A stretch of DNA of 26,816 bases from Methanotrichaceae archaeon (GTDB taxonomy: Archaea; Halobacteriota; Methanosarcinia; Methanotrichales; Methanotrichaceae), in the NCBI GenBank assembly GCA_963754945.1, contig CAVWIG010000037.1, positions 1 to 26,816 of the forward strand, given 5' to 3'. The stretch's first letter is position 1; the number at the start of each line of letters is the position of its first letter. Positions 8,659 to 14,537 of this stretch are shown here, one piece after another. The notes under the pieces were generated by a model that was not told where the DNA came from, searched no databases, and worked only from the letters and a program-made list of their open reading frames with translations. Position numbers and translations under genes: made by a program.

Positions 8659-11600
8659 ATGGACTTCGTCAAGTTGGTCTTTGTCTGCACTCTGGTCGTG
8701 GCTCTTCTCACTACAAGCCAAGCCCAGGAGAATTCCGCCAGGTACTGGCTTGAAAAAGGCCAGGCCCTTAGCTCTAATGGCTCTTATCAAGAAGCATTGT
8801 CGTCTTTTAATAACTCCATTGGGCTCGATAGCCGACAAGCTGCGGCTTGGACAGGCAAGGGAGATGTGCTGTACAAACTTGGTGGATACGAAGCCGCAGC
8901 GAACTGTTACGATCACGCGGTGGGCATCGATTCAGAGAACCCTGTGGCCTGGGAGGGCAAGGGTCTGGCCGCCTCGAAGCTGGGACGATACAAGATGGCC
9001 AGGCTCAGCTTCGAGTCTGCTCTGCGCCTTGACCCGAACAACAGAGCGTTCTTGTACAACATGGCTCAGGTCCTGAATAAGCTAGAGGATTACCAGGATG
9101 CCTTGGATGCTTACAACAAGTTGGATAAGATGACACCAGGGAACACCAGTGTGATTCTTGGCAAAGGCGATGCCCTAAGGGGTCTGGATAGGTTCGAAGA
9201 ATCAATCTCATGCTACGACAACGTCACTAAGACGGATCAACGAAACCGGTATGCAGTATTGGGAAAAGCAGAGGCATTGGTCGGCCAGGCAGAAGTGCTC
9301 TCGGGACTGCACAGGTTTGATGAAGCTATTCAACTCTACGATAAGGCTTCCGAACTCGACAGGAACAACTCTGATTCGCTCATGGGCAAGGCTAGAGCGC
9401 TGGCTGGAATAGGAGACCAACTGCTAGAACAGGGCAGCTTCAAAGAGGCTGGAGCGCTTTACAACCAATCACTGCTGTTGATCCCACAAAATCCGTTCGC
9501 GTTAGCAGGATTAGAAAACGTCTCTTCTCTCATAAAAGAGAGCTCTGAGCACGAGAAGTCAAAGACCAATATCGTACTTCCTTCAACAGAAAGCATTTCA
9601 ACCAATCTCATCGGACCCAGGGTTAAGGCACCTGAGGTCAACAACACACCTCGAAAACCTAGAAACGATTATAGCTACTGGATTAATAGAAGCCTGGAGC
9701 TCAGTCGAAATGGATCATTCGATGAAGCTCTGGCCTCCTTCAACCAAACTCTAGAGCTGGACGACCATCAGGCAGAGGCTTGGATAGGCAAAGGAGATGC
9801 ACTCTACAAACTAGGAAGATACGAGGAAGCAACCAACTGCTATGACCGGGCTATAGGCATCGATTCGGAAAACCCAAGGGCCTGGGAAGGCAAGGGCCTG
9901 GCCACATCGAAGCAGGGCAATCTAAGAATGGCCCGGTTCAGTCTGGATGCTGCGCTGCGCCTAGACCCGGATAACGCTCTGCTCTGGTACAATGCGGCCT
10001 ATGTTCACACCGGTCTGAAGGAGTATACCGATGCACTGGATAGCTACGATAGAGCTGAAAAGCTATCACCTGGCAACGTCCCCGCGTTCCTCGGAAAAGG
10101 CGGCGTTCTGATGATTCTAGGAAAGTACGGTGATGCAGTAAAGTGTTACGACCAGATTTTGGTCATCGATCCAAAGAACCTCAGCGCTATATTGGGGAAG
10201 GGAGATGCACTTCTGGCTTTGAAAGAGTACGATATGGCTCTGGAATCATATCAGAACGCCCTTGCCATCGATTCCAGAAATGTCACCGCTTATGTGGGCA
10301 GCGGAACCGTATTATCTGCTCAGAAGAAACTTGATCCGGCCCTTGAGTCCTATCAAAGGGCCTTGAATGTAAGCCCTGAAAACATCCAGGCCCAACTGGG
10401 AAAAGGGGATCTGCTATGGCAGAAAGGCAGTCTTGATCCGGCCCTCGAATCCTACGAGGACGTCCTCAAGCTCGATCCGGGCAATTCGTTTGCTCTCGCG
10501 GGGAAGGGAGATGTGCTCCGCCAACAGAGAAGATTGAACTTATCCCGCGTCAGCTACGAGTCTGCCCTAGGCCTCGATCCAAAGAATACCAGGGCTCTGG
10601 AAGGCCTGGCAGAGGTGGAATACCAGCAGAAGGACTTCGAAGGCGCCCTGAAATCCTACCAGAACGTCCACCAAATGGAACCGAAGAACATAAAGGCGCT
10701 GGTGAGACAAGGAGACATCCTCCGCCTGCAGGGGATGCTAGAAAAAGCCCTGGAATCCTATCAAATGGCCTTGGACCTTGACCCGAGAGACATCGAGGCC
10801 CTCTTAGGAGAAGGAAATGCTTTGCTCTTGGAAGAGAAGTTCGACTTGGCCCTGGGATTCTATACTAAGGCGCTTTCCATCGATCCGGGGGACACCAGGG
10901 CGCTTGAGGGAAGAGGCGATGCCCTTTACCACAAAAAGGATCTGGACGGAGCTCTCGCCTCATACCAAAAAGCCTTGATTCTAAACCCCCTGAAGCCCGG
11001 ATCTCTCGCTGGCATTGGAGACATCCTCTGCGATCGCGGCAATTTCACTGCGGGCCTGCAATTCTACAGAATGGCCATTGAACGAGACGACACCTGCGTA
11101 AGAGCATTAACAGGAGAAGGGATTGTACTGGCTGCACTTAACCGCTCCGCTGATGCATTGAAATGTTTTGACCGGATTGTTTCTTTGTATCCTGATAGCG
11201 CGGCCGCCTGGTCCAATAAAGGAAGCCTTATGGCGGCAACGGGAACATTAACTGATGCTCTAGGATGCTTCCAAAAAGCATCAGGTTTGGACCCCTCAAG
11301 CGAAGCTGTTTGGTCTAACCTGGGATTGACCTTCTATGAGCTTGGAAGATACCAGGAGTCAGCGGATTCGTACAAAAAAGCGCTCAGCTTGAAACCCGAA
11401 GACCCTACTGGTTGGTATGGCCGAGGGCTAGCTTTGAACAGAACAGGCCAGATCGATGAAGCAATAAAAAGCTATCAGAACGCCACAAGATTAGACCCGG
11501 GCTACACAGCAGCTTGGTACAACCAGGGACTGGCCCTGGCGAAATTGAACCGTAGTCAGGAAGCAGTCGATTGCTTCAACCGAGTTCTGGAGATCAATCC

Positions 11601-11670
11601 AAACATCTCTGAGGCCAAGTACAGCAGGGATCTGCTCCTGGATCTACATAAAGAGAATCTTTCGGGTTGA
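8659..11670 (+). CDS. Large secreted tetratricopeptide-repeat protein
   Basis: Signal peptide (..TTSQA), more than 20 34-aa TPR units of the W..KG.AL..LG.Y.EA...Y..AL.LDP type, and several N-x-S/T sequons. Confidence 0.93.
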   Translation: MDFVKLVFVCTLVVALLTTSQAQENSARYWLEKGQALSSNGSYQEALSSFNNSIGLDSRQAAAWTGKGDVLYKLGGYEAAANCYDHAVGIDSENPVAWEGKGLAASKLGRYKMARLSFESALRLDPNNRAFLYNMAQVLNKLEDYQDALDAYNKLDKMTPGNTSVILGKGDALRGLDRFEESISCYDNVTKTDQRNRYAVLGKAEALVGQAEVLSGLHRFDEAIQLYDKASELDRNNSDSLMGKARALAGIGDQLLEQGSFKEAGALYNQSLLLIPQNPFALAGLENVSSLIKESSEHEKSKTNIVLPSTESISTNLIGPRVKAPEVNNTPRKPRNDYSYWINRSLELSRNGSFDEALASFNQTLELDDHQAEAWIGKGDALYKLGRYEEATNCYDRAIGIDSENPRAWEGKGLATSKQGNLRMARFSLDAALRLDPDNALLWYNAAYVHTGLKEYTDALDSYDRAEKLSPGNVPAFLGKGGVLMILGKYGDAVKCYDQILVIDPKNLSAILGKGDALLALKEYDMALESYQNALAIDSRNVTAYVGSGTVLSAQKKLDPALESYQRALNVSPENIQAQLGKGDLLWQKGSLDPALESYEDVLKLDPGNSFALAGKGDVLRQQRRLNLSRVSYESALGLDPKNTRALEGLAEVEYQQKDFEGALKSYQNVHQMEPKNIKALVRQGDILRLQGMLEKALESYQMALDLDPRDIEALLGEGNALLLEEKFDLALGFYTKALSIDPGDTRALEGRGDALYHKKDLDGALASYQKALILNPLKPGSLAGIGDILCDRGNFTAGLQFYRMAIERDDTCVRALTGEGIVLAALNRSADALKCFDRIVSLYPDSAAAWSNKGSLMAATGTLTDALGCFQKASGLDPSSEAVWSNLGLTFYELGRYQESADSYKKALSLKPEDPTGWYGRGLALNRTGQIDEAIKSYQNATRLDPGYTAAWYNQGLALAKLNRSQEAVDCFNRVLEINPNISEAKYSRDLLLDLHKENLSG

Positions 11671-11804
11671 CTGGAAGATCTATTGAGCTGGAATCGATAA
11701 TAGCGAATGATTATCTTATCGTCACAGAAAGCTGAGGTAGCACCGTTGGAGATGCACCATAGAGGGTGGTGGGAAAACCATTTCTACGTACTCCAGCAAG
11801 CTTG

Positions 11805-12266
11805 CTACCATCTTCCCTCAGCACTTCGTTTTTTGGCTTGCAAAACGTTTTGATTTATGTCTTGATTTACCAAGCCAGTAACCTCAGCCAACAATCTGTA
11901 CTGCCTGTTGTTTCTGTTGCCTTTGCGTTCCAGAAGACCGTCGCGGTTCATTCTGGAGAGGTAAGTGGAGACAGTGGAGAGCTTGATATCGTCAGAAACA
12001 GTCTCGTATTTATCTCTGAGCTGCTGAGTTGTGAACCAGTTTTCAGGAAATTCGAACCTGATGAAATTCTCCAATCTGTCCATCAAGGTTCCACCGGCTT
12101 CGTAGGTATGAGCGGATTGAGGCTGGCTTTCTTTCTCAGAGAATACACCTGAGGCACCCAAATAACTTACAATCTTGTCTCTGAGATCCTCTCCCCCGAG
12201 CTCTTGGGATTCGAACTCATAGACTGATTTCATGCCTTTGTCTTCGATCTCAATCCGGATCCTCAT
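11805..12266 (-). CDS. Uncharacterised protein with C-terminal winged helix-turn-helix
   Basis: C-terminal WFTTQQLRDKY..IKLSTVSTYLSRMNRDGLLERKG..RQYRL fits a wHTH pattern, and there is a short N-terminal beta-beta-alpha module. GGTG lies just upstream of the ATG. Confidence 0.8.
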   Translation of the reverse strand: MRIRIEIEDKGMKSVYEFESQELGGEDLRDKIVSYLGASGVFSEKESQPQSAHTYEAGGTLMDRLENFIRFEFPENWFTTQQLRDKYETVSDDIKLSTVSTYLSRMNRDGLLERKGNRNNRQYRLLAEVTGLVNQDINQNVLQAKKRSAEGRW

Positions 12267-13140
12267 GTAACACCAACTCTTGATCCTTCCCTCGATCTAA
12301 GCGTTGAGTCCAGGAGCCTGATCGAGGGTCACTGAAATCCCTTCGGTGATTGAACGATCTATCTTCTCGTATCCGGCTACGTCAAATCTGTGTCCTTGGC
12401 GCAGATCAATTGACAGTGTGAACAACTTGATGCTTCCCCTCATGTATCTTCCCTTCCATCTACCCTACAGATCTGGAAGGATCGAATCAGGACCGAAAAG
12501 ACCCCCTTATTCGTGCCTGACACGACCCAATTTCCTTCACTCGTGTCATCCCTTCACTTCGTGCACAAACGCCACCATCTCGATTTTCAACGATCGAAAA
12601 CCGATACGGTTCCATCTTATCCCGCTGTCCCTTTCCAGCGGCCTGGATTACGTTTATGCATCTCCAACTTCTAGCCCTCTTGTCGTCCCTTTCCGACAGT
12701 TAGGCTTTTAATGGATCCGGACTAGCTTCCAATCTCAAACTCGGCCGTCCCTTTTTCGGCTTTGATTGAGAGTTCGAACCAATCTTGTCCGATCCGAACT
12801 GCTTCTCCCTTCTTGCTCCCTGGTGCCATCCCTTATCGAGGCGTACTGACATACAGCTCGTAACTTGCCAGGGATCACAAAGATCCTGGCTTCCCCTTCA
12901 TTGCTACTCAGTTCGTGCCATCCCTTCAGGTGACTCGAGCTTGTACAATATGGACAAAGTCAGGATCGTTACAGATCTTGTGCATCGTTATATCTGTTGA
13001 ATGCCTTCGAACCGCGATCACGACTTTTCCACAGTACGCCGTTTGCGGACCTGCGAAGACCCATCCATCCCCTCAAGACGAATAGCTCCTCAGACAACTC
13101 CTGTCTGATGTATTCAGACAGGGTGTCAACCCTTTTTTGA
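12267..13140 (-). ncRNA. Candidate large structured RNA / 5' leader with repeated AAGGGA motifs (family unassigned)
   Basis: No convincing ORF. Multiple stems (12289-12328, 12562-12660, 12580-12604, 12622-12641, 12681-12698, 12744-12760, 12771-12800, 13100-13122), several of them needing G-U pairs available only on the minus strand. Nine exact AAGGGA copies on the minus strand. A BRE/TATA lies immediately upstream. Boundaries are approximate. Confidence 0.6.
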
Positions 13141-13163
13141 CAACTATAACCTTGTAATAGAAG

Positions 13164-13178
13164 TATATAAACTTTTCC
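13164..13178 (-). promoter_or_regulatory. Archaeal promoter (BRE + TATA box)
   Basis: The minus strand reads GGAAAAG-TTTATATA, a purine-rich BRE directly 5' of a consensus TATA. This predicts a transcription start near 13140. Confidence 0.7.
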
Positions 13179-13381
13179 AACAGTCGAAAGTTGTAGTTAA
13201 TCGATAACAACAAAGAATATAGTTTTATTTTTGAAATAGAACCAGTATAGTAGTCTAAATAGTATTCACACATAATGCTTTCGACGGGAAACTTGTAGTG
13301 TATATCGCTGTTGAGAGGAGATACTAATTGATACTATCATAATAATAAGATATCCGCAGATGCTTTAATTATGTTCGCGAC

Positions 13382-13402
13382 ATTGTGAAAGCTTTTCACA
13401 AT
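13382..13402. promoter_or_regulatory. Perfect palindrome, candidate transcription-factor operator
   Basis: ATTGTGAAA-GCT-TTTCACAAT (9-bp arms, 3-nt spacer) in AT-rich intergenic DNA, with a further half-site ATTGTGAA at 13427-13434. Confidence 0.45.
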
Positions 13403-13569
13403 CCTTACGTTTCGCAGATATTGTAGATTGTGAATCCCATTTCTTAGGTTGACCAACTCATCGGAATTAGCGGTTGTGCGCGGAGTTCAAAAGGATATTA
13501 TTCCCGAGATTTATTGTTGTGACCGCCAAAGAGCGGTCGTCTCTCCACCATACTAAAAAAGTGAGTTAT

Positions 13570-13692
13570 TTAAGAAGCCTGATTTGGTTCGAAGTACTCT
13601 TCAATAAGCCAGTCGCCGATCTCTTTTAGATACTTGCGCCTGCGCTCATCTTCCAAAATAAGCTGAAAAACCTCGGATAAATCTTCATCCAT
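13570..13692 (-). CDS. Small acidic protein, 40 aa (below the ORF track cutoff)
   Basis: Manual translation gives MDEDLSEVFQLILEDERRRKYLKEIGDWLIEEYFEPNQAS*. A TTTAAAT TATA-like element lies about 30 nt upstream and a T6 tract just downstream (13555-13560). Confidence 0.6.
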   Translation of the reverse strand: MDEDLSEVFQLILEDERRRKYLKEIGDWLIEEYFEPNQAS

Positions 13693-13760: not shown

Positions 13761-14537
13761 CTAATCTAGATTCTGCATAGGCCTGCGATTTATCCTGGCT
13801 AGGATCAGAGCAACATAGTAAGGCCCTTGTGTCCTCTTCAGCCTGCCAGCGTGCACAGGGTGGTCGCCGCAGAGGACCAGAAGAGTCTCATTCGAGGCGG
13901 CAGATGCTATCTTACCAGCGCAGCGATCTATCGAAATCGCGGCATTTCTTATCTCCTTTGGTCCAAGGCCCAAGTGAACCGTCTTATCTATTCCTATGAA
14001 ATAAGATATTAGTAACCTAGGCTTGCTGGCGAGAGCCTCAAGGGACTTGCTACAGGACTCCTGGTCGAAATCTTCCGGGCTCAAGCAATCTGGAATCCCT
14101 GAAGCGATCTCTATTTTGTCTCTATAGACATCTGCTCCACTCTTTTCCATTATCACAGCAGATCTGAGCCCCTGTAAGCTGGCAGCTTCAGGTAGGCTTG
14201 GCATTCTCGATTTCTCGACGCTCTCTTTATCAAAGATCCTGTGATGCTCAGGCAATAGACCGCTGAGGATGGAAGCGATGGATGGAGATGTGTGAGTGGA
14301 TACGGCTTCTGCTTTCATCAGAAGGCCGCATTTGGCTAAATCCGGTATGTGCTTCAGACCAGGCTCCAGCCACCGGTAGAGATCGTAACCTAGGCTGTCA
14401 ACGATTATTAGAACGGCGTTTCGGCATTTCCAGCCATTTACCTCTCTAATCGGTCTTCCATCCACATTGTGAATGGCTATGCCCAAAACTTGCGCAATGG
14501 TAGGAGCGATATCCACCTGGCTGACATGTCTCATCAC
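13761..14537 (-). CDS. Alkaline phosphatase / sulfatase / phosphodiesterase superfamily protein
   Basis: Metal-ligand motifs LIIVDSLG, STHTSPSIASILSGLLPEHH, IDKTVH and LCGDHP. Confidence 0.8.
   Translation of the reverse strand: MMRHVSQVDIAPTIAQVLGIAIHNVDGRPIREVNGWKCRNAVLIIVDSLGYDLYRWLEPGLKHIPDLAKCGLLMKAEAVSTHTSPSIASILSGLLPEHHRIFDKESVEKSRMPSLPEAASLQGLRSAVIMEKSGADVYRDKIEIASGIPDCLSPEDFDQESCSKSLEALASKPRLLISYFIGIDKTVHLGLGPKEIRNAAISIDRCAGKIASAASNETLLVLCGDHPVHAGRLKRTQGPYYVALILARINRRPMQNLD

What the first reader, a model, noticed from the sequence alone, without database searches (positions are those of the whole stretch)
12267..13140. ~870-nt structured non-coding RNA candidate in one transcription unit with a winged-helix protein gene
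Seen: a consensus BRE/TATA (13164-13178, minus) is separated from the next minus-strand gene by ~870 nt with no credible ORF, and the interval is dense with stems. Examples are AGUUCGGAUCGG/UUGGUUCGAACU (12771-12800, 12 bp with 4 G-U), UCGGUUUUCGA/UUGAAAAUCGA (12580-12604, 2 G-U) and a closing helix UGCAUAAACG/CGUUUGUGCA (12651-12660 with 12562-12571) that encloses two hairpins as a multibranch junction. Further stems lie at 13100-13122, 12867-12890 and 12289-12328. The G-U pairs would be A-C mismatches on the plus strand, which points to selection on minus-strand RNA structure rather than DNA palindromes. I see no RNase P, SRP, tRNA, group II intron domain V or CRISPR hallmarks. Inference: an undescribed large archaeal ncRNA or giant regulatory leader working with the downstream wHTH protein.
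Basis: partly seen in the sequence, partly recalled or inferred. Interest (0 to 1): 0.88.

Follow-up and report, generated by a model that had tools for sequence, protein, structure and literature searches.

The report
Repeat-hairpin leader RNA of Methanothrix regulator operon
A conserved, roughly 700-base structured RNA leader studded with AAGGGA-bearing hairpins sits in front of a small open reading frame and a DNA-binding-type regulator gene in Methanothrix-family archaea, and it looks like a protein-binding RNA of a kind not described in archaea.

Summary
Window 12444-13141 (minus) is a non-coding, strongly folding RNA behind a perfect BRE/TATA box.

The arrangement promoter, leader, sORF, winged-helix (wHTH) gene recurs in 30 of 30 related Methanotrichaceae loci examined, and in looser form in 8 of 10 loci of further genera.

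AAGGGA occurs 9 times here (0.86 expected) and 197 times in 30 leaders (24.5 expected). It often extends to AAGGGAYGGCA and often sits in hairpin loops whose stems covary.

Canonical Shine-Dalgarno hexamers are depleted in the leaders. Rfam gives nothing. CsrA is not found in this genome and passes its cut-off in 1 of 105 family genomes.

Genome-wide, the only other dense motif cluster is the conserved 5' UTR of a large DUF11 surface-protein gene.

Best reading (confidence 0.42): a multivalent platform for an unidentified sequence-specific RNA-binding factor, like CsrB in design, either cis-regulatory or a sponge. The function is inferred, not shown. No description was found in six literature searches.

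The parts
13164..13178 (-). BRE + TATA box (GGAAAAG TTTATATA). The transcription start is inferred near 13141.
   Evidence: Sequence. It is the only minus-strand TATA-like match between 13171 and 11652. TTATATA is invariant in 30 of 30 aligned loci. The start site is inferred from the usual archaeal spacing and was not measured.
13100..13122 (-). Hairpin P1, CCUGUCUGA-AUACA-UCAGACAGG.
   Evidence: It is kept in both same-genus relatives with C-to-U changes that give U-G pairs. The 5' arm CCUGUCUGA is conserved family-wide.
13050..13093 (-). Hairpin P2, GAGG..UAUUCGUC-UUGAGGGG-AUGGAUGG..CUUC, presenting UGAGGG in its loop.
   Evidence: RNAalifold on 29 loci gives 13 pairs, 5 of them with compensatory changes. 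93.5% of cells pair, against at most 59% when the partner is slid. The covariance model R1 scores 54 bits here.
12893..12934 (-). Block 2: GUCACC-UG-AAGGGAUGGCAC-GAACU-GAGUAGCAAUGAAGGGG. It resembles a translation-start region. The AUG at 12899-12901 opens an 8-codon frame.
   Evidence: The core ..AGCAAUGAAGGGG is found in 26 of 30 leaders. The frames that open there all begin MKG and are otherwise unconserved, 5 to more than 50 codons long. It is conserved by blastn across genera (query 247-290).
12867..12890 (-). Hairpin GCCAGGAUC-UUUGU-GAUCCCUGGC.
   Evidence: It is kept with changes in same-genus relatives.
12806..12834 (-). Second AAGGGAUGGCAC element (12823-12834) followed by AAGGGAG (12806-12811).
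12771..12800 (-).
   Evidence: A shifted GGAUCGGA/UUCGGUUC pairing is possible in both same-genus relatives. A GAUCGGAUC...GAUCCGAUC hairpin recurs in other genera.
12744..12760 (-). Loop-motif hairpin GCCG-AAAAAGGGA-CGGC.
12681..12698 (-). Loop-motif hairpin UGUCG-GAAAGGGA-CGACA.
   Evidence: For covariation of this hairpin class.
12622..12641 (-). Loop-motif hairpin CCGCUG-GAAAGGGA-CAGCGG, inside the multibranch closed by 12651-12660 with 12562-12571.
12580..12604 (-).
12518..12554 (-). Third class-A element, AAGGGAUGACAC. Its UGACACGA pairs with UCGUGUCA (12518-12525).
   Evidence: The pairing was read from the sequence.
12297..12443 (-). Conserved small ORF, 48 aa (MRGSIKLFTLSIDL...), preceded by GGAAGGGAAGAUAC (AAGGGA at 12450-12455).
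   Evidence: A homologue is present in 29 of 30 loci with coding-type substitution. There is no Pfam or NCBIfam family. The AlphaFold model is poor, pLDDT 60.
11805..12266 (-). 153-aa protein: N-terminal beta-hairpin plus helix, a linker, a winged helix-turn-helix, and a conserved C-terminal KRxAEGRW.
   Evidence: It is found in 91 of 105 family genomes.

Best explanation
Window ~12444-13141 (minus strand) is the ~700-nt 5' leader of a two-gene unit, a small ORF followed by a winged-helix regulator. The unit is transcribed from the conserved BRE/TATA at 13164-13178.

The leader is a modular structured RNA found in Methanotrichaceae. It carries ten or so copies of a purine motif (core AAGGGA, often AAGGGAYGGCA, variant UGAGGGGAU). 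Several copies sit in hairpin loops on stems that vary in sequence but stay paired.

I propose that it works as a multivalent binding platform for a sequence-specific trans-acting RNA-binding factor, most likely a protein that is not yet identified. The same factor would recognise the same motif in the 5' UTR and ribosome-binding site of the large DUF11 surface-protein mRNA.

Binding to the leader would either set the stability or translation of the sORF-wHTH message, or titrate the factor away from its other targets. The second option is the logic of CsrB.

Shown here:
- conservation and synteny;
- strand-specific motif enrichment;
- hairpin covariation;
- absence of coding signal in the leader;
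- presence of the region in RNA libraries;
- a second motif cluster in one other conserved 5' UTR.

Inferred:
- the start site;
- co-transcription with the genes;
- the existence and identity of the binding factor;
- the regulatory outcome.
For: (1) Conservation.
- The arrangement promoter, ~640-990-nt gap, sORF, wHTH gene is present in 30 of 30 loci taken from the best wHTH matches.
- Of 10 loci from the remaining genera, 8 have a TTTATATA 411-1009 nt upstream, and the same 8 carry 2-7 sense-strand AAGGGA. The antisense strands of all 10 loci carry 0-1.

(2) Motif.
- AAGGGA is the most enriched of all 6-mers in the leaders, 170 observed against 15.3 in dinucleotide shuffles.
- The total is 197 against 24.5, with a maximum of 38 in 200 shuffles.
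- There are 3-12 sense against 0-1 antisense copies per locus.
- In the own genome the background is 0.31 per kb per strand, and the 9-copy cluster is unique.

(3) RNA structure.
- All 58 distinct G[GA]AAGGGA sites of the 30 leaders were taken without selection. Their 9-nt flanks pair in 64.0% of cells against 50.6% in shuffles (0 of 500). The covariation score is 0.400 against 0.208 (0 of 500) and at most 0.239 when slid.
- Stems include cacagucg/cggcugug, cauugucg/cggcaaug and ugugugccgg/ccggcgcaca.
- G-U pairs outnumber A-C cells 59 to 31, which favours the sense RNA.
- In hairpin P2, 93.5% of cells pair.

(4) Not coding.
- 0 of 10 leader ORFs hit Pfam.
- Related metatranscriptome contigs differ by indels of 1, 2 or 4 nt at 12 listed places between 12555 and 13052. 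None is listed in the two coding regions, but 15 further rows were not shown.

(5) RNA libraries.
- Contigs from 4 metatranscriptome runs of 4 studies lie on 11786-13108.
- Two of them (X2 12395-12556, X6 12395-12552) join the leader to the sORF with at least 31 nt on both sides.

(6) A second target-like site.
- Only two places in the genome hold 4 or more motif copies within 150 nt: this leader and C27:36077-36219, the 5' UTR of a DUF11/DUF7507 surface-protein gene.
- 17 of 18 evaluable homologous 5' UTRs keep 2 or more AAGGGA, one of them placed as the ribosome-binding site.

(7) Not a plain Shine-Dalgarno mimic.
- Canonical SD hexamers are depleted in the leaders: AGGAGG 0 against 14.7, GGAGGG 2 against 17.8, GGAGGT 1 against 8.2.
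- The same hexamers dominate upstream of the genome's start codons.
Against: - No binding factor is identified.
- CsrA, the only known protein with this kind of site, is not found in this genome. It passes its cut-off in 1 of 105 family genomes.
- The loop-motif hairpin occurs nowhere else in the genome in paired form. A wide regulon is therefore not visible. The supposed second target rests on one 5' UTR.
- There is no terminator between the array and the genes, so it is not a separate sRNA gene as CsrB is.
- The sequences are kin, so the shuffle controls overstate significance.
- Contigs cannot show the 5' end, the strand or a single transcript, and DNA carry-over in RNA libraries is not excluded.
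- Only about 41% of AAGGGA copies (81 of 197) have a simple stem of 4 bp or more around them. Many copies are presented in some other way.
Confidence: 0.42

Rival explanations
1. A purely cis-acting structured leader. The fold itself, or translation of the start-like Block 2 mini-frames and of the sORF, controls expression of the wHTH gene. It could act as a sensor of temperature, ions or a metabolite, or through upstream-ORF coupling. No dedicated trans factor would be needed, and the repeated purine loops would serve tertiary contacts.
For: - Modules keep a conserved order.
- A possible long-range helix joins the 5' UGUGCCA to the last UGGCAC. It has 7 pairs in 18 of 18 aligned leaders.
- Block 2 has an SD-like GGGAG, a spacer and an AUG, conserved in 26 of 30 leaders.
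- The sORF ends 13-31 nt before the wHTH start in most loci, which suits translational coupling.
Against: - The same motif cluster in an unrelated 5' UTR is not explained.
- Interior sequence and the number of hairpins vary widely between genera. This is unusual for a ligand-binding fold.
- The long-range helix shows no two-sided covariation within the aligned set.
- There is no Rfam riboswitch match.
Confidence: 0.2
2. A ribosome-binding or stabilising leader. The GGGA/GAGG cores pair with the 3' end of 16S rRNA (..CCUCCU). 30S subunits would then load on the leader and protect it from 5'-to-3' decay, or act as stand-by sites. This would resemble the Bacillus STAB-SD elements (recalled, not from a call).
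For: - The 16S 3' end is GGAUCACCUCCU. GGGA(G) can form 4-5 pairs with it (my own pairing).
- In the surface-protein gene one copy sits 5-6 nt before the AUG, where an SD belongs.
- The motif lies at or near the 5' end of both transcripts.
Against: - Canonical SD hexamers are strongly depleted in the leaders, although they are the preferred SD genome-wide.
- The conserved motif extends to YGGCA, which has no complement in the 16S tail.
Confidence: 0.1
3. The leader is processed and its 5' part accumulates as a stable stand-alone ncRNA, a true 'large archaeal ncRNA' that acts in trans. The downstream genes would merely share its promoter.
For: - In run X3 the contigs on 12880-13027 carry word depths of 1513-2728, against 158-263 on the wHTH gene. 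In X1 the figures are 268-366 against 158-170.
- The 5' ~130 nt are the best conserved part.
Against: - The tool states that contig depth cannot rank parts of a gene.
- No terminator-like site or oligo-T tract lies after the 5' domain.
- No ends were mapped.
Confidence: 0.15
4. DNA-level element: the repeats are operator sites on DNA for the wHTH and/or sORF proteins, giving auto-regulation by roadblock.
For: - The wHTH resembles DNA-binding repressors of the PadR, MecI and MarR types.
- The P2 sequence recurs at a second locus just upstream of a conserved TATA box.
Against: - All copies are on the transcribed strand in 38 of 38 motif-bearing loci, and likewise in the second 5' UTR.
- Stems covary while the loops stay fixed.
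- There are 59 G-U against 31 A-C cells.
- P2 holds 3-4 G-U pairs in most sequences, which makes it a poor DNA palindrome.
- The spacing is irregular, 13 to more than 200 nt.
Confidence: 0.06
5. RNA G-quadruplex elements: neighbouring GGG tracts fold into quadruplexes that gate translation.
For: Some stretches hold four GGG tracts with 7-10-nt spacers. Examples are the surface-protein start region and leaders L020 and L027.
Against: - Most copies are 50-90 nt apart and sit singly in hairpin loops.
- The flanking A and YGGCA are conserved, which a quadruplex does not need.
Confidence: 0.04
6. Chance, or a decayed protein gene.
For: Long antisense ORFs appear (121 aa here, 218 aa in L011).
Against: - Such frames are expected opposite a 60% purine strand.
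- None hits Pfam.
- The motif enrichment, synteny and covariation set out above argue against chance.
Confidence: 0.02

Closest known systems
CsrB/CsrC/RsmY/RsmZ sRNAs, which sequester CsrA in bacteria
   Same: - Many copies of a short purine motif with a GGA core are displayed in hairpin loops of one RNA.
- The motif also occurs several times in a target 5' UTR, with one copy at the ribosome-binding site.
- AGGGAUG fits the recalled CsrA consensus A(R)GGAUG.
- Abstract starts seen in the listing say that CsrA recognises GGA-containing hairpin loops (PMC13443453) and that CsrB/C bind multiple CsrA dimers (PMC5027483).
   Different: - No CsrA was found: 0 in this genome, and 1 of 105 family genomes over the cut-off.
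- There is no Rfam match to any Csr/Rsm family.
- The RNA is about twice as long and is continuous with downstream coding genes, not a terminated sRNA gene.
- The motif is longer (AAGGGAYGGCA).
- The organism is an archaeon.
Long structured 5' leaders / cis-regulatory RNAs of prokaryotic regulator genes
   Same: It lies between a promoter and the genes it precedes, with no internal promoter-like or terminator-like site. Its position is conserved.
   Different: - The length (~700 nt).
- The repeat architecture.
- A copy number that varies between genera.
- The same motif recurs in an unrelated mRNA.
STAB-SD 5' stabilisers of Gram-positive mRNAs (recalled, not from a call)
   Same: SD-like purine elements near the 5' end that are not used for initiation.
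   Different: Here canonical SD words are avoided, and the motif has conserved bases outside any 16S complement.
Large bacterial structured ncRNAs (OLE, GOLLD, ROOL, HEARO; recalled)
   Same: The size class, the strong folding signal and the restricted phyletic range.
   Different: Those have long, well-conserved multi-helix cores. This RNA is a string of short modules with poorly conserved spacers, and it is attached to coding genes.

Membership tests
CsrB/Rsm-type protein-sequestering sRNA | Multiple GGA-core motifs presented in hairpin loops | tested here: met
   There are 9 AAGGGA in the window leader. The loop hairpins have covarying stems. About 41% of copies (81 of 197) have a simple stem of 4 bp or more.
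CsrB/Rsm-type protein-sequestering sRNA | Cognate CsrA/RsmA protein encoded by the organism | tested here: not met
   PF02599 gives 0 matches in the own genome, which is 87.7% complete. 1 of 105 family genomes is over the cut-off. The search's controls gave matches in E. coli, B. subtilis and T. maritima.
CsrB/Rsm-type protein-sequestering sRNA | Independent sRNA gene ending in a terminator | tested here: not met
   There is no terminator-like site on the minus strand. T5 runs occur in 3 of 30 leaders. RNA-library contigs join the leader to the sORF.
CsrB/Rsm-type protein-sequestering sRNA | Match to the Rfam models of the family | tested here: not met
   0 matches at gathering score and 0 at E<=1.
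Any Rfam 15 family (riboswitch, RNase P, SRP, intron, CRISPR repeat ...) | Covariance-model match | tested here: not met
CRISPR array / tandem repeat | Regularly spaced repeats of 24-48 nt | tested here: not met
   Tandem Repeats Finder gives 0 rows at score 30. The motif core is 6-12 nt and its spacing is irregular.
Shine-Dalgarno mimic (STAB-SD-like) | Complementarity to the 16S rRNA 3' end comparable with real SDs | tested here: not met
   The 16S tail is CCUCCU. GGGA(G) gives 4-5 pairs, by my own pairing. Canonical SD hexamers are depleted in the leaders although preferred genome-wide.
Winged helix-turn-helix regulator (the downstream protein) | Three-helix bundle plus beta wing, similar to solved wHTH repressors | tested here: met
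   The AlphaFold model has H61-72, H80-90, H96-108, E112-115 and E122-125, with pLDDT 82-88 there. The best Foldseek rows are PadR, MecI, Fur and MarR types at E 1.6e-3 and weaker. Pfam hits are all below their cut-offs.
Ribbon-helix-helix protein (the sORF product; my guess) | Strand-helix-helix fold and a Pfam RHH match | tested here: inconclusive
   There is no Pfam or NCBIfam match. The model shows an extended N-terminus plus two helices, but with pLDDT 60 and pTM 0.17. Only the first ~14 residues are well conserved.

The most novel reading that the evidence does not exclude
Methanotrichaceae have a post-transcriptional circuit like the Csr system, built from unrelated parts. An unidentified RNA-binding protein would recognise AAGGGA(Y)GGCA. 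It would control translation of the major DUF11 surface protein, and perhaps the hsp20/acetate-transporter locus through the shared P2 hairpin. The ~700-nt leader would be its decoy, tying the factor's free concentration to the output of a conserved sORF-wHTH regulator. This would be the first protein-sponge RNA described in Archaea.
Probability: 0.25. Interest if true: 0.88.

Novelty: new variant of a known kind. Interest (0 to 1): 0.72.

Why it matters
Methanothrix produces much of the world's biogenic methane from acetate, and almost nothing is known about its gene regulation.

A family-wide, highly structured RNA with a repeated recognition motif gives a concrete handle. The motif can be used as bait to find an archaeal sequence-specific RNA-binding regulator. 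It also links a conserved but uncharacterised regulator operon to a major cell-surface protein gene.

If the sponge reading holds, the titration design used by Csr systems evolved independently in Archaea. If it does not hold, this is still a new and unusually large archaeal RNA family with clear covariation. It is suited to structure probing and to inclusion in RNA family databases.

Tried and rejected
- **Tandem repeat or CRISPR.** Tandem Repeats Finder found nothing.
- **Known RNA family.** Rfam gave nothing at gathering score or at E<=1.
- **CsrA as the partner.** Not found.
- **Plain SD mimic.** Weakened by the depletion of canonical SD words.
- **Decayed gene.** 0 of 10 leader ORFs hit Pfam. 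I did not run a translated search of the leader against the large protein collections.
- **Regulon of loop-motif hairpins.** Of the 12 genome-wide GGAAAGGGAC sites, I saw flanks that pair around the motif only at the two in the leader. The generic stem scan gave 297 of 1843 AAGGGA sites with a stem of 4 bp or more, which is not informative.
- **Search for a complementary UCCCUU-bearing sRNA.** It only returned the same loci read from the other strand.
- **sORF as a ribbon-helix-helix protein.** No family match and a poor model. It stays a guess.
- **Function hints for the wHTH.** Pfam hits are sub-threshold only. NCBIfam gave none. Foldseek gave generic wHTH repressors. The Atlas returned only 'hypothetical protein' clusters for the homologue P0032.
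- **Full-length consensus fold of 18 leaders.** The alignment is gappy. Only P2, two loop-motif hairpins and two long-range helices without two-sided covariation came out. I do not rely on the long-range helices.
- **Parts without cover in read laying.** No contig of the four runs lay on 13109-13600 or on 11696-11769.
- **Contig depth.** Higher on the 5' part of the leader in X1 and X3. It cannot rank parts.
- **Complex prediction.** Not used. I make no claim that the sORF and wHTH products bind.
- **Literature.** Six answered searches listed no paper describing this RNA, the motif or the protein. I saw listings and abstract starts only and read no paper. Supplements were closed, and TSS tables of Methanothrix studies, if any exist, were not seen.
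- **The search of earlier findings.** It was closed.
Full report
**What is at the coordinates**

On the minus strand a textbook archaeal promoter (GGAAAAG TTTATATA, 13178-13164) is followed by about 875 nt before the 153-aa gene at 12266-11805. That fold is far more stable than shuffles: -300.7 kcal/mol, z -8.93, 0 of 20 shuffles as good. The plus strand is also structured (z -7.93) but 45 kcal/mol weaker. Rfam gives no match at gathering score in the whole window, and none at E<=1 on 12200-13250.

**One correction: a small gene inside the interval**

The 3' end of the interval, 12443-12297, is a 48-aa ORF (MRGSIKLFTLSIDL...).

- A homologous ORF of 48-57 aa is present in 29 of 30 related loci. 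L042 looks decayed.
- It has an SD-like GGAGGG 5-9 nt upstream.
- Its first 14 codons show the coding pattern. Entropy by codon position is 0.65/0.48/1.17, and 105 synonymous against 99 non-synonymous codons differ from the consensus.
- Only its N-terminus is well conserved.
- It has no family match and its model is poor.

The non-coding leader is therefore about 13141-12444.

**It is conserved**

Source names place the protein in Methanotrichaceae (Methanothrix/Methanosaeta).

- The wHTH protein is found in 91 of 105 family genomes, and in 61 of 64 good-quality ones.
- By blastn the whole leader aligns only within the genus (94% and 87% identity). Its first ~120 nt and a 45-nt block align in 12 of 24 other family genomes, and in 0 of 16 genomes of two other families of the class.
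- In the 30 best loci a profile of the promoter plus 5' domain hits 30 of 30, at 684-1038 nt before the wHTH start. TTATATA is invariant.
- The upstream neighbour (a phosphodiesterase/sulfatase-like gene) is the same in the 8 loci inspected.
- In 10 loci from the remaining genera, 8 have a TTTATATA 411-1009 nt upstream and sense-only purine motifs. Five show the sORF pattern. The two exceptions are L087 and L092, both from genus g8 genomes that hold two copies.
- Homologous wHTH genes in four other families of the class keep the N-terminal domain and the wHTH, but they have 0-1 AAGGGA in the 1.1 kb upstream.

**The repeat**

- The window has 9 AAGGGA on the minus strand between 12338 and 12926, and none on the plus strand there. 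One of them (12338-12343) lies inside the sORF.
- The genome background is 0.31 per kb per strand, and no other place has more than 6 copies in 700 nt.
- Across the 30 leaders there are 197 copies, against 24.5 in dinucleotide shuffles (maximum 38 in 200).
- Copies number 3-12 per locus on the sense strand and 0-1 on the antisense strand.
- An unbiased count of all 6-mers puts AAGGGA first (170 against 15.3), followed by words of its extension (TGGCAC, ATGGCA, GACGGC).
- The position table gives RRAAGGGAYGGCA.

**The repeat is presented by RNA structure**

- Many copies are hairpin loops, (G)GAAAGGGA, on stems whose sequences differ but pair. Examples are cacagucg/cggcugug, cauugucg/cggcaaug, aucc­ucacugucg/cgacagugaggau and ugugugccgg/ccggcgcaca.
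- I took all 58 distinct G[GA]AAGGGA sites of the 30 leaders without selecting for pairing.
  - The nine flanking positions pair in 64.0% of cells, against 50.6% in shuffles (0 of 500 reach the observed value).
  - The covariation score is 0.400 against 0.208 (0 of 500).
  - All slid controls are at or below 0.239.
- G-U cells outnumber A-C cells 59 to 31, as expected for the sense RNA.
- These sequences are kin, so the shuffle figures are not probabilities.
- The 5' domain holds a second conserved hairpin, P2 (window 13050-13093), with UGAGGG in its loop. It has 13 pairs, 93.5% of cells pair against at most 59% when slid, and 5 pairs show two-sided changes.
- Other recurring modules:
  - Block 2 (12934-12893, GUCACC..AAGGGAUGGCAC..GAGUAGCAAUGAAGGGG), found in 26 of 30 leaders. 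It looks like a translation start. The frames that open there all begin MKG and are otherwise unconserved.
  - A GAUCGGAUC/GAUCCGAUC hairpin.
  - A CAGGCUGUGAAA/UUUCACAGCCUG hairpin with visible compensations between genera (my reading).
- The leaders are 60.4% purine.

**Transcription**

- No TATA-like box (at most 1 mismatch) lies on the minus strand between the promoter and 11652.
- No terminator-like site lies on that strand.
- T5 runs occur in 3 of 30 leaders.
- Contigs of four metatranscriptome runs from four studies lie on 11786-13108.
- Two of them (X2 12395-12556, X6 12395-12552) join the leader to the sORF.
- Variants in these contigs carry 1-, 2- and 4-nt indels at 12 listed places, all between 12555 and 13052 (15 more rows were not shown).
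- Contigs show neither ends nor strand nor a single molecule, and DNA in the libraries is not excluded.

**Where else the motif occurs**

- Only two places in the genome hold 4 or more motif copies in 150 nt: the leader and C27:36077-36219.
- The second place is the 5' UTR and start of a gene whose full-length relatives are 1030-1650-aa (mostly ~1110-1270) DUF7507/DUF11-repeat surface proteins.
  - In 17 of 18 evaluable relatives the 260 nt before the start keep 2 or more AAGGGA behind a conserved TATA.
  - The first copy lies at about the start of the transcript, and the last is placed as the ribosome-binding site (AAGGGAGUAG-AUG).
  - Block 2 of the leader resembles this start region. The local score is 31 against 19 for shuffles, with 4 of 500 as high. 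This is a weak lead.
- The P2 hairpin has exactly one other copy in the genome (C28:12164-12207, model R1).
  - Most genomes of 9 genera have two copies, one in each locus. In all, 31 of 61 genomes match.
  - The second locus lies between a yjbQ-like gene and Hsp20-like plus acetate-transporter-like genes (names from my reading of the translations). It sits just upstream of a conserved TATA.

**What the motif is not**

- The 16S rRNA ends in CCUCCU, so GGGA(G) could form 4-5 pairs with it. But canonical SD words are nearly absent from the leaders (AGGAGG 0 against 14.7, GGAGGG 2 against 17.8), although they dominate before the genome's start codons. The leaders seem to avoid true ribosome-binding sites while accumulating a different word.
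- AGGGAUG fits the recalled CsrA consensus. However, CsrA is not found in this genome and passes its cut-off in only 1 of 105 family genomes.

**The proteins**

- The 153-aa product has a beta-hairpin plus helix, a variable linker, a winged helix with an invariant STVSTYLSRMNRDG...GNRNNRQYR, and a conserved tail.
- Structure search gives generic wHTH repressors at weak E-values.
- No function is known for it.

**Mechanism**

The design is that of a multivalent binding platform. A fixed 6-12-nt word is displayed many times on variable stems. All copies lie on the transcribed strand. The word is shared with the ribosome-binding region of one other conserved mRNA.

I therefore favour an unidentified sequence-specific RNA-binding factor (confidence 0.42). 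The leader would be either its regulatory target or its decoy.

The rivals are:

- a cis-acting fold or upstream-ORF control (0.20);
- a processed stand-alone ncRNA (0.15, not exclusive of the main reading);
- 30S binding (0.10);
- DNA operators (0.06);
- G-quadruplexes (0.04);
- chance or a dead gene (0.02).

**Novelty**

Six literature searches (listings only) and Rfam show no description. As a kind it is closest to the CsrB/Rsm RNAs, but it fails three of their four defining features tested here. I rate it a new variant of a known kind, in a domain where none is known.

Noticed in passing
Own genome C27:36077-36219 (+) (locus L051/L054); relatives L055-L073: The 5' UTR and start of a large DUF11/DUF7507 surface-protein gene carries 5-7 AAGGGA/GAGGGA copies behind a conserved TATA. 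One copy serves as the ribosome-binding site. 17 of 18 evaluable relatives keep 2 or more copies. In this genome the reading frame is only 290 codons, against 1030-1650 (mostly ~1110-1270) in relatives.
   Followed up: partly
Own genome C28:12150-12270 (-) (L052); L047-L050 in four other genomes: There is a second copy of the P2 hairpin (23 nt identical in four genera), nested in a GGAUCCGGG/CCCGGAUCC stem and preceded by another GAGGGG. It lies between a divergent yjbQ-like gene and Hsp20-like plus acetate-transporter-like genes, just upstream of a conserved TATA. Whether it is transcribed is unknown.
   Followed up: partly
Own genome C21:95594-95759 (+), C14:18028-18143 (-), C35:46230-46348 (+): A three-copy repeat of ~115 nt (81-84% identity) begins A(A)GGGAUGGCCGGGUCAGUCAUGAAGGGAGUAUGGGG. 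It has the same motif words and a GGCCGGG/CCCGGCC stem. The two copies scanned (C21, C35) have no Rfam match; the C14 copy was not scanned.
   Followed up: partly
Own genome C18:38050-38110 (-) (L004/L053): A Block-2-like copy (AAGGGAUGGCACGAG ... GGGAGUAGCAAUGAAGGGGG ... CGUCACCUCGUGCC) lies opposite the start of a plus-strand membrane-protein gene. Its GGCACGAG can pair with CUCGUGCC.
   Followed up: no
L074, L075, L078 (family f3 of the class): The wHTH homologues there are 246-333 aa. A long Gln/Pro/Asn-rich low-complexity linker is inserted between the conserved N-terminal domain and the wHTH. There is no AAGGGA array upstream.
   Followed up: no
G002:C59:1940-3377: One same-genus genome holds a second, more distant copy of the 5' domain plus a wHTH gene with an in-frame TAA. 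It could be a paralogue, a pseudogene or a contig from another strain.
   Followed up: no
L083, L084, L085, L089, L091 (about 600-1500 nt upstream of the wHTH start): In several other genera a small Cys-rich ORF (MELIGICAICG...LYTC.LCG) lies upstream of the leader promoter on the same strand. In this window that place is taken by a phosphodiesterase-like gene (13761-14537).
   Followed up: no
Window 8659-11670 (+): A 1003-aa protein made almost wholly of TPR repeats, with an N-terminal signal-like segment, converges on the wHTH gene.
   Followed up: no
G114:C19:3109-3264: This is the only CsrA match over the cut-off in 105 family genomes. The assembly is 88% complete. It may be a stray bacterial contig.
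   Followed up: no
L052:1280-1316 (-) = own genome C28:12479-12515: A sub-threshold Rfam hit to CRISPR-DR57 (27.2 bits against a gathering score of 39, E 0.0073), inside the yjbQ-like gene region. It is probably chance.
   Followed up: no
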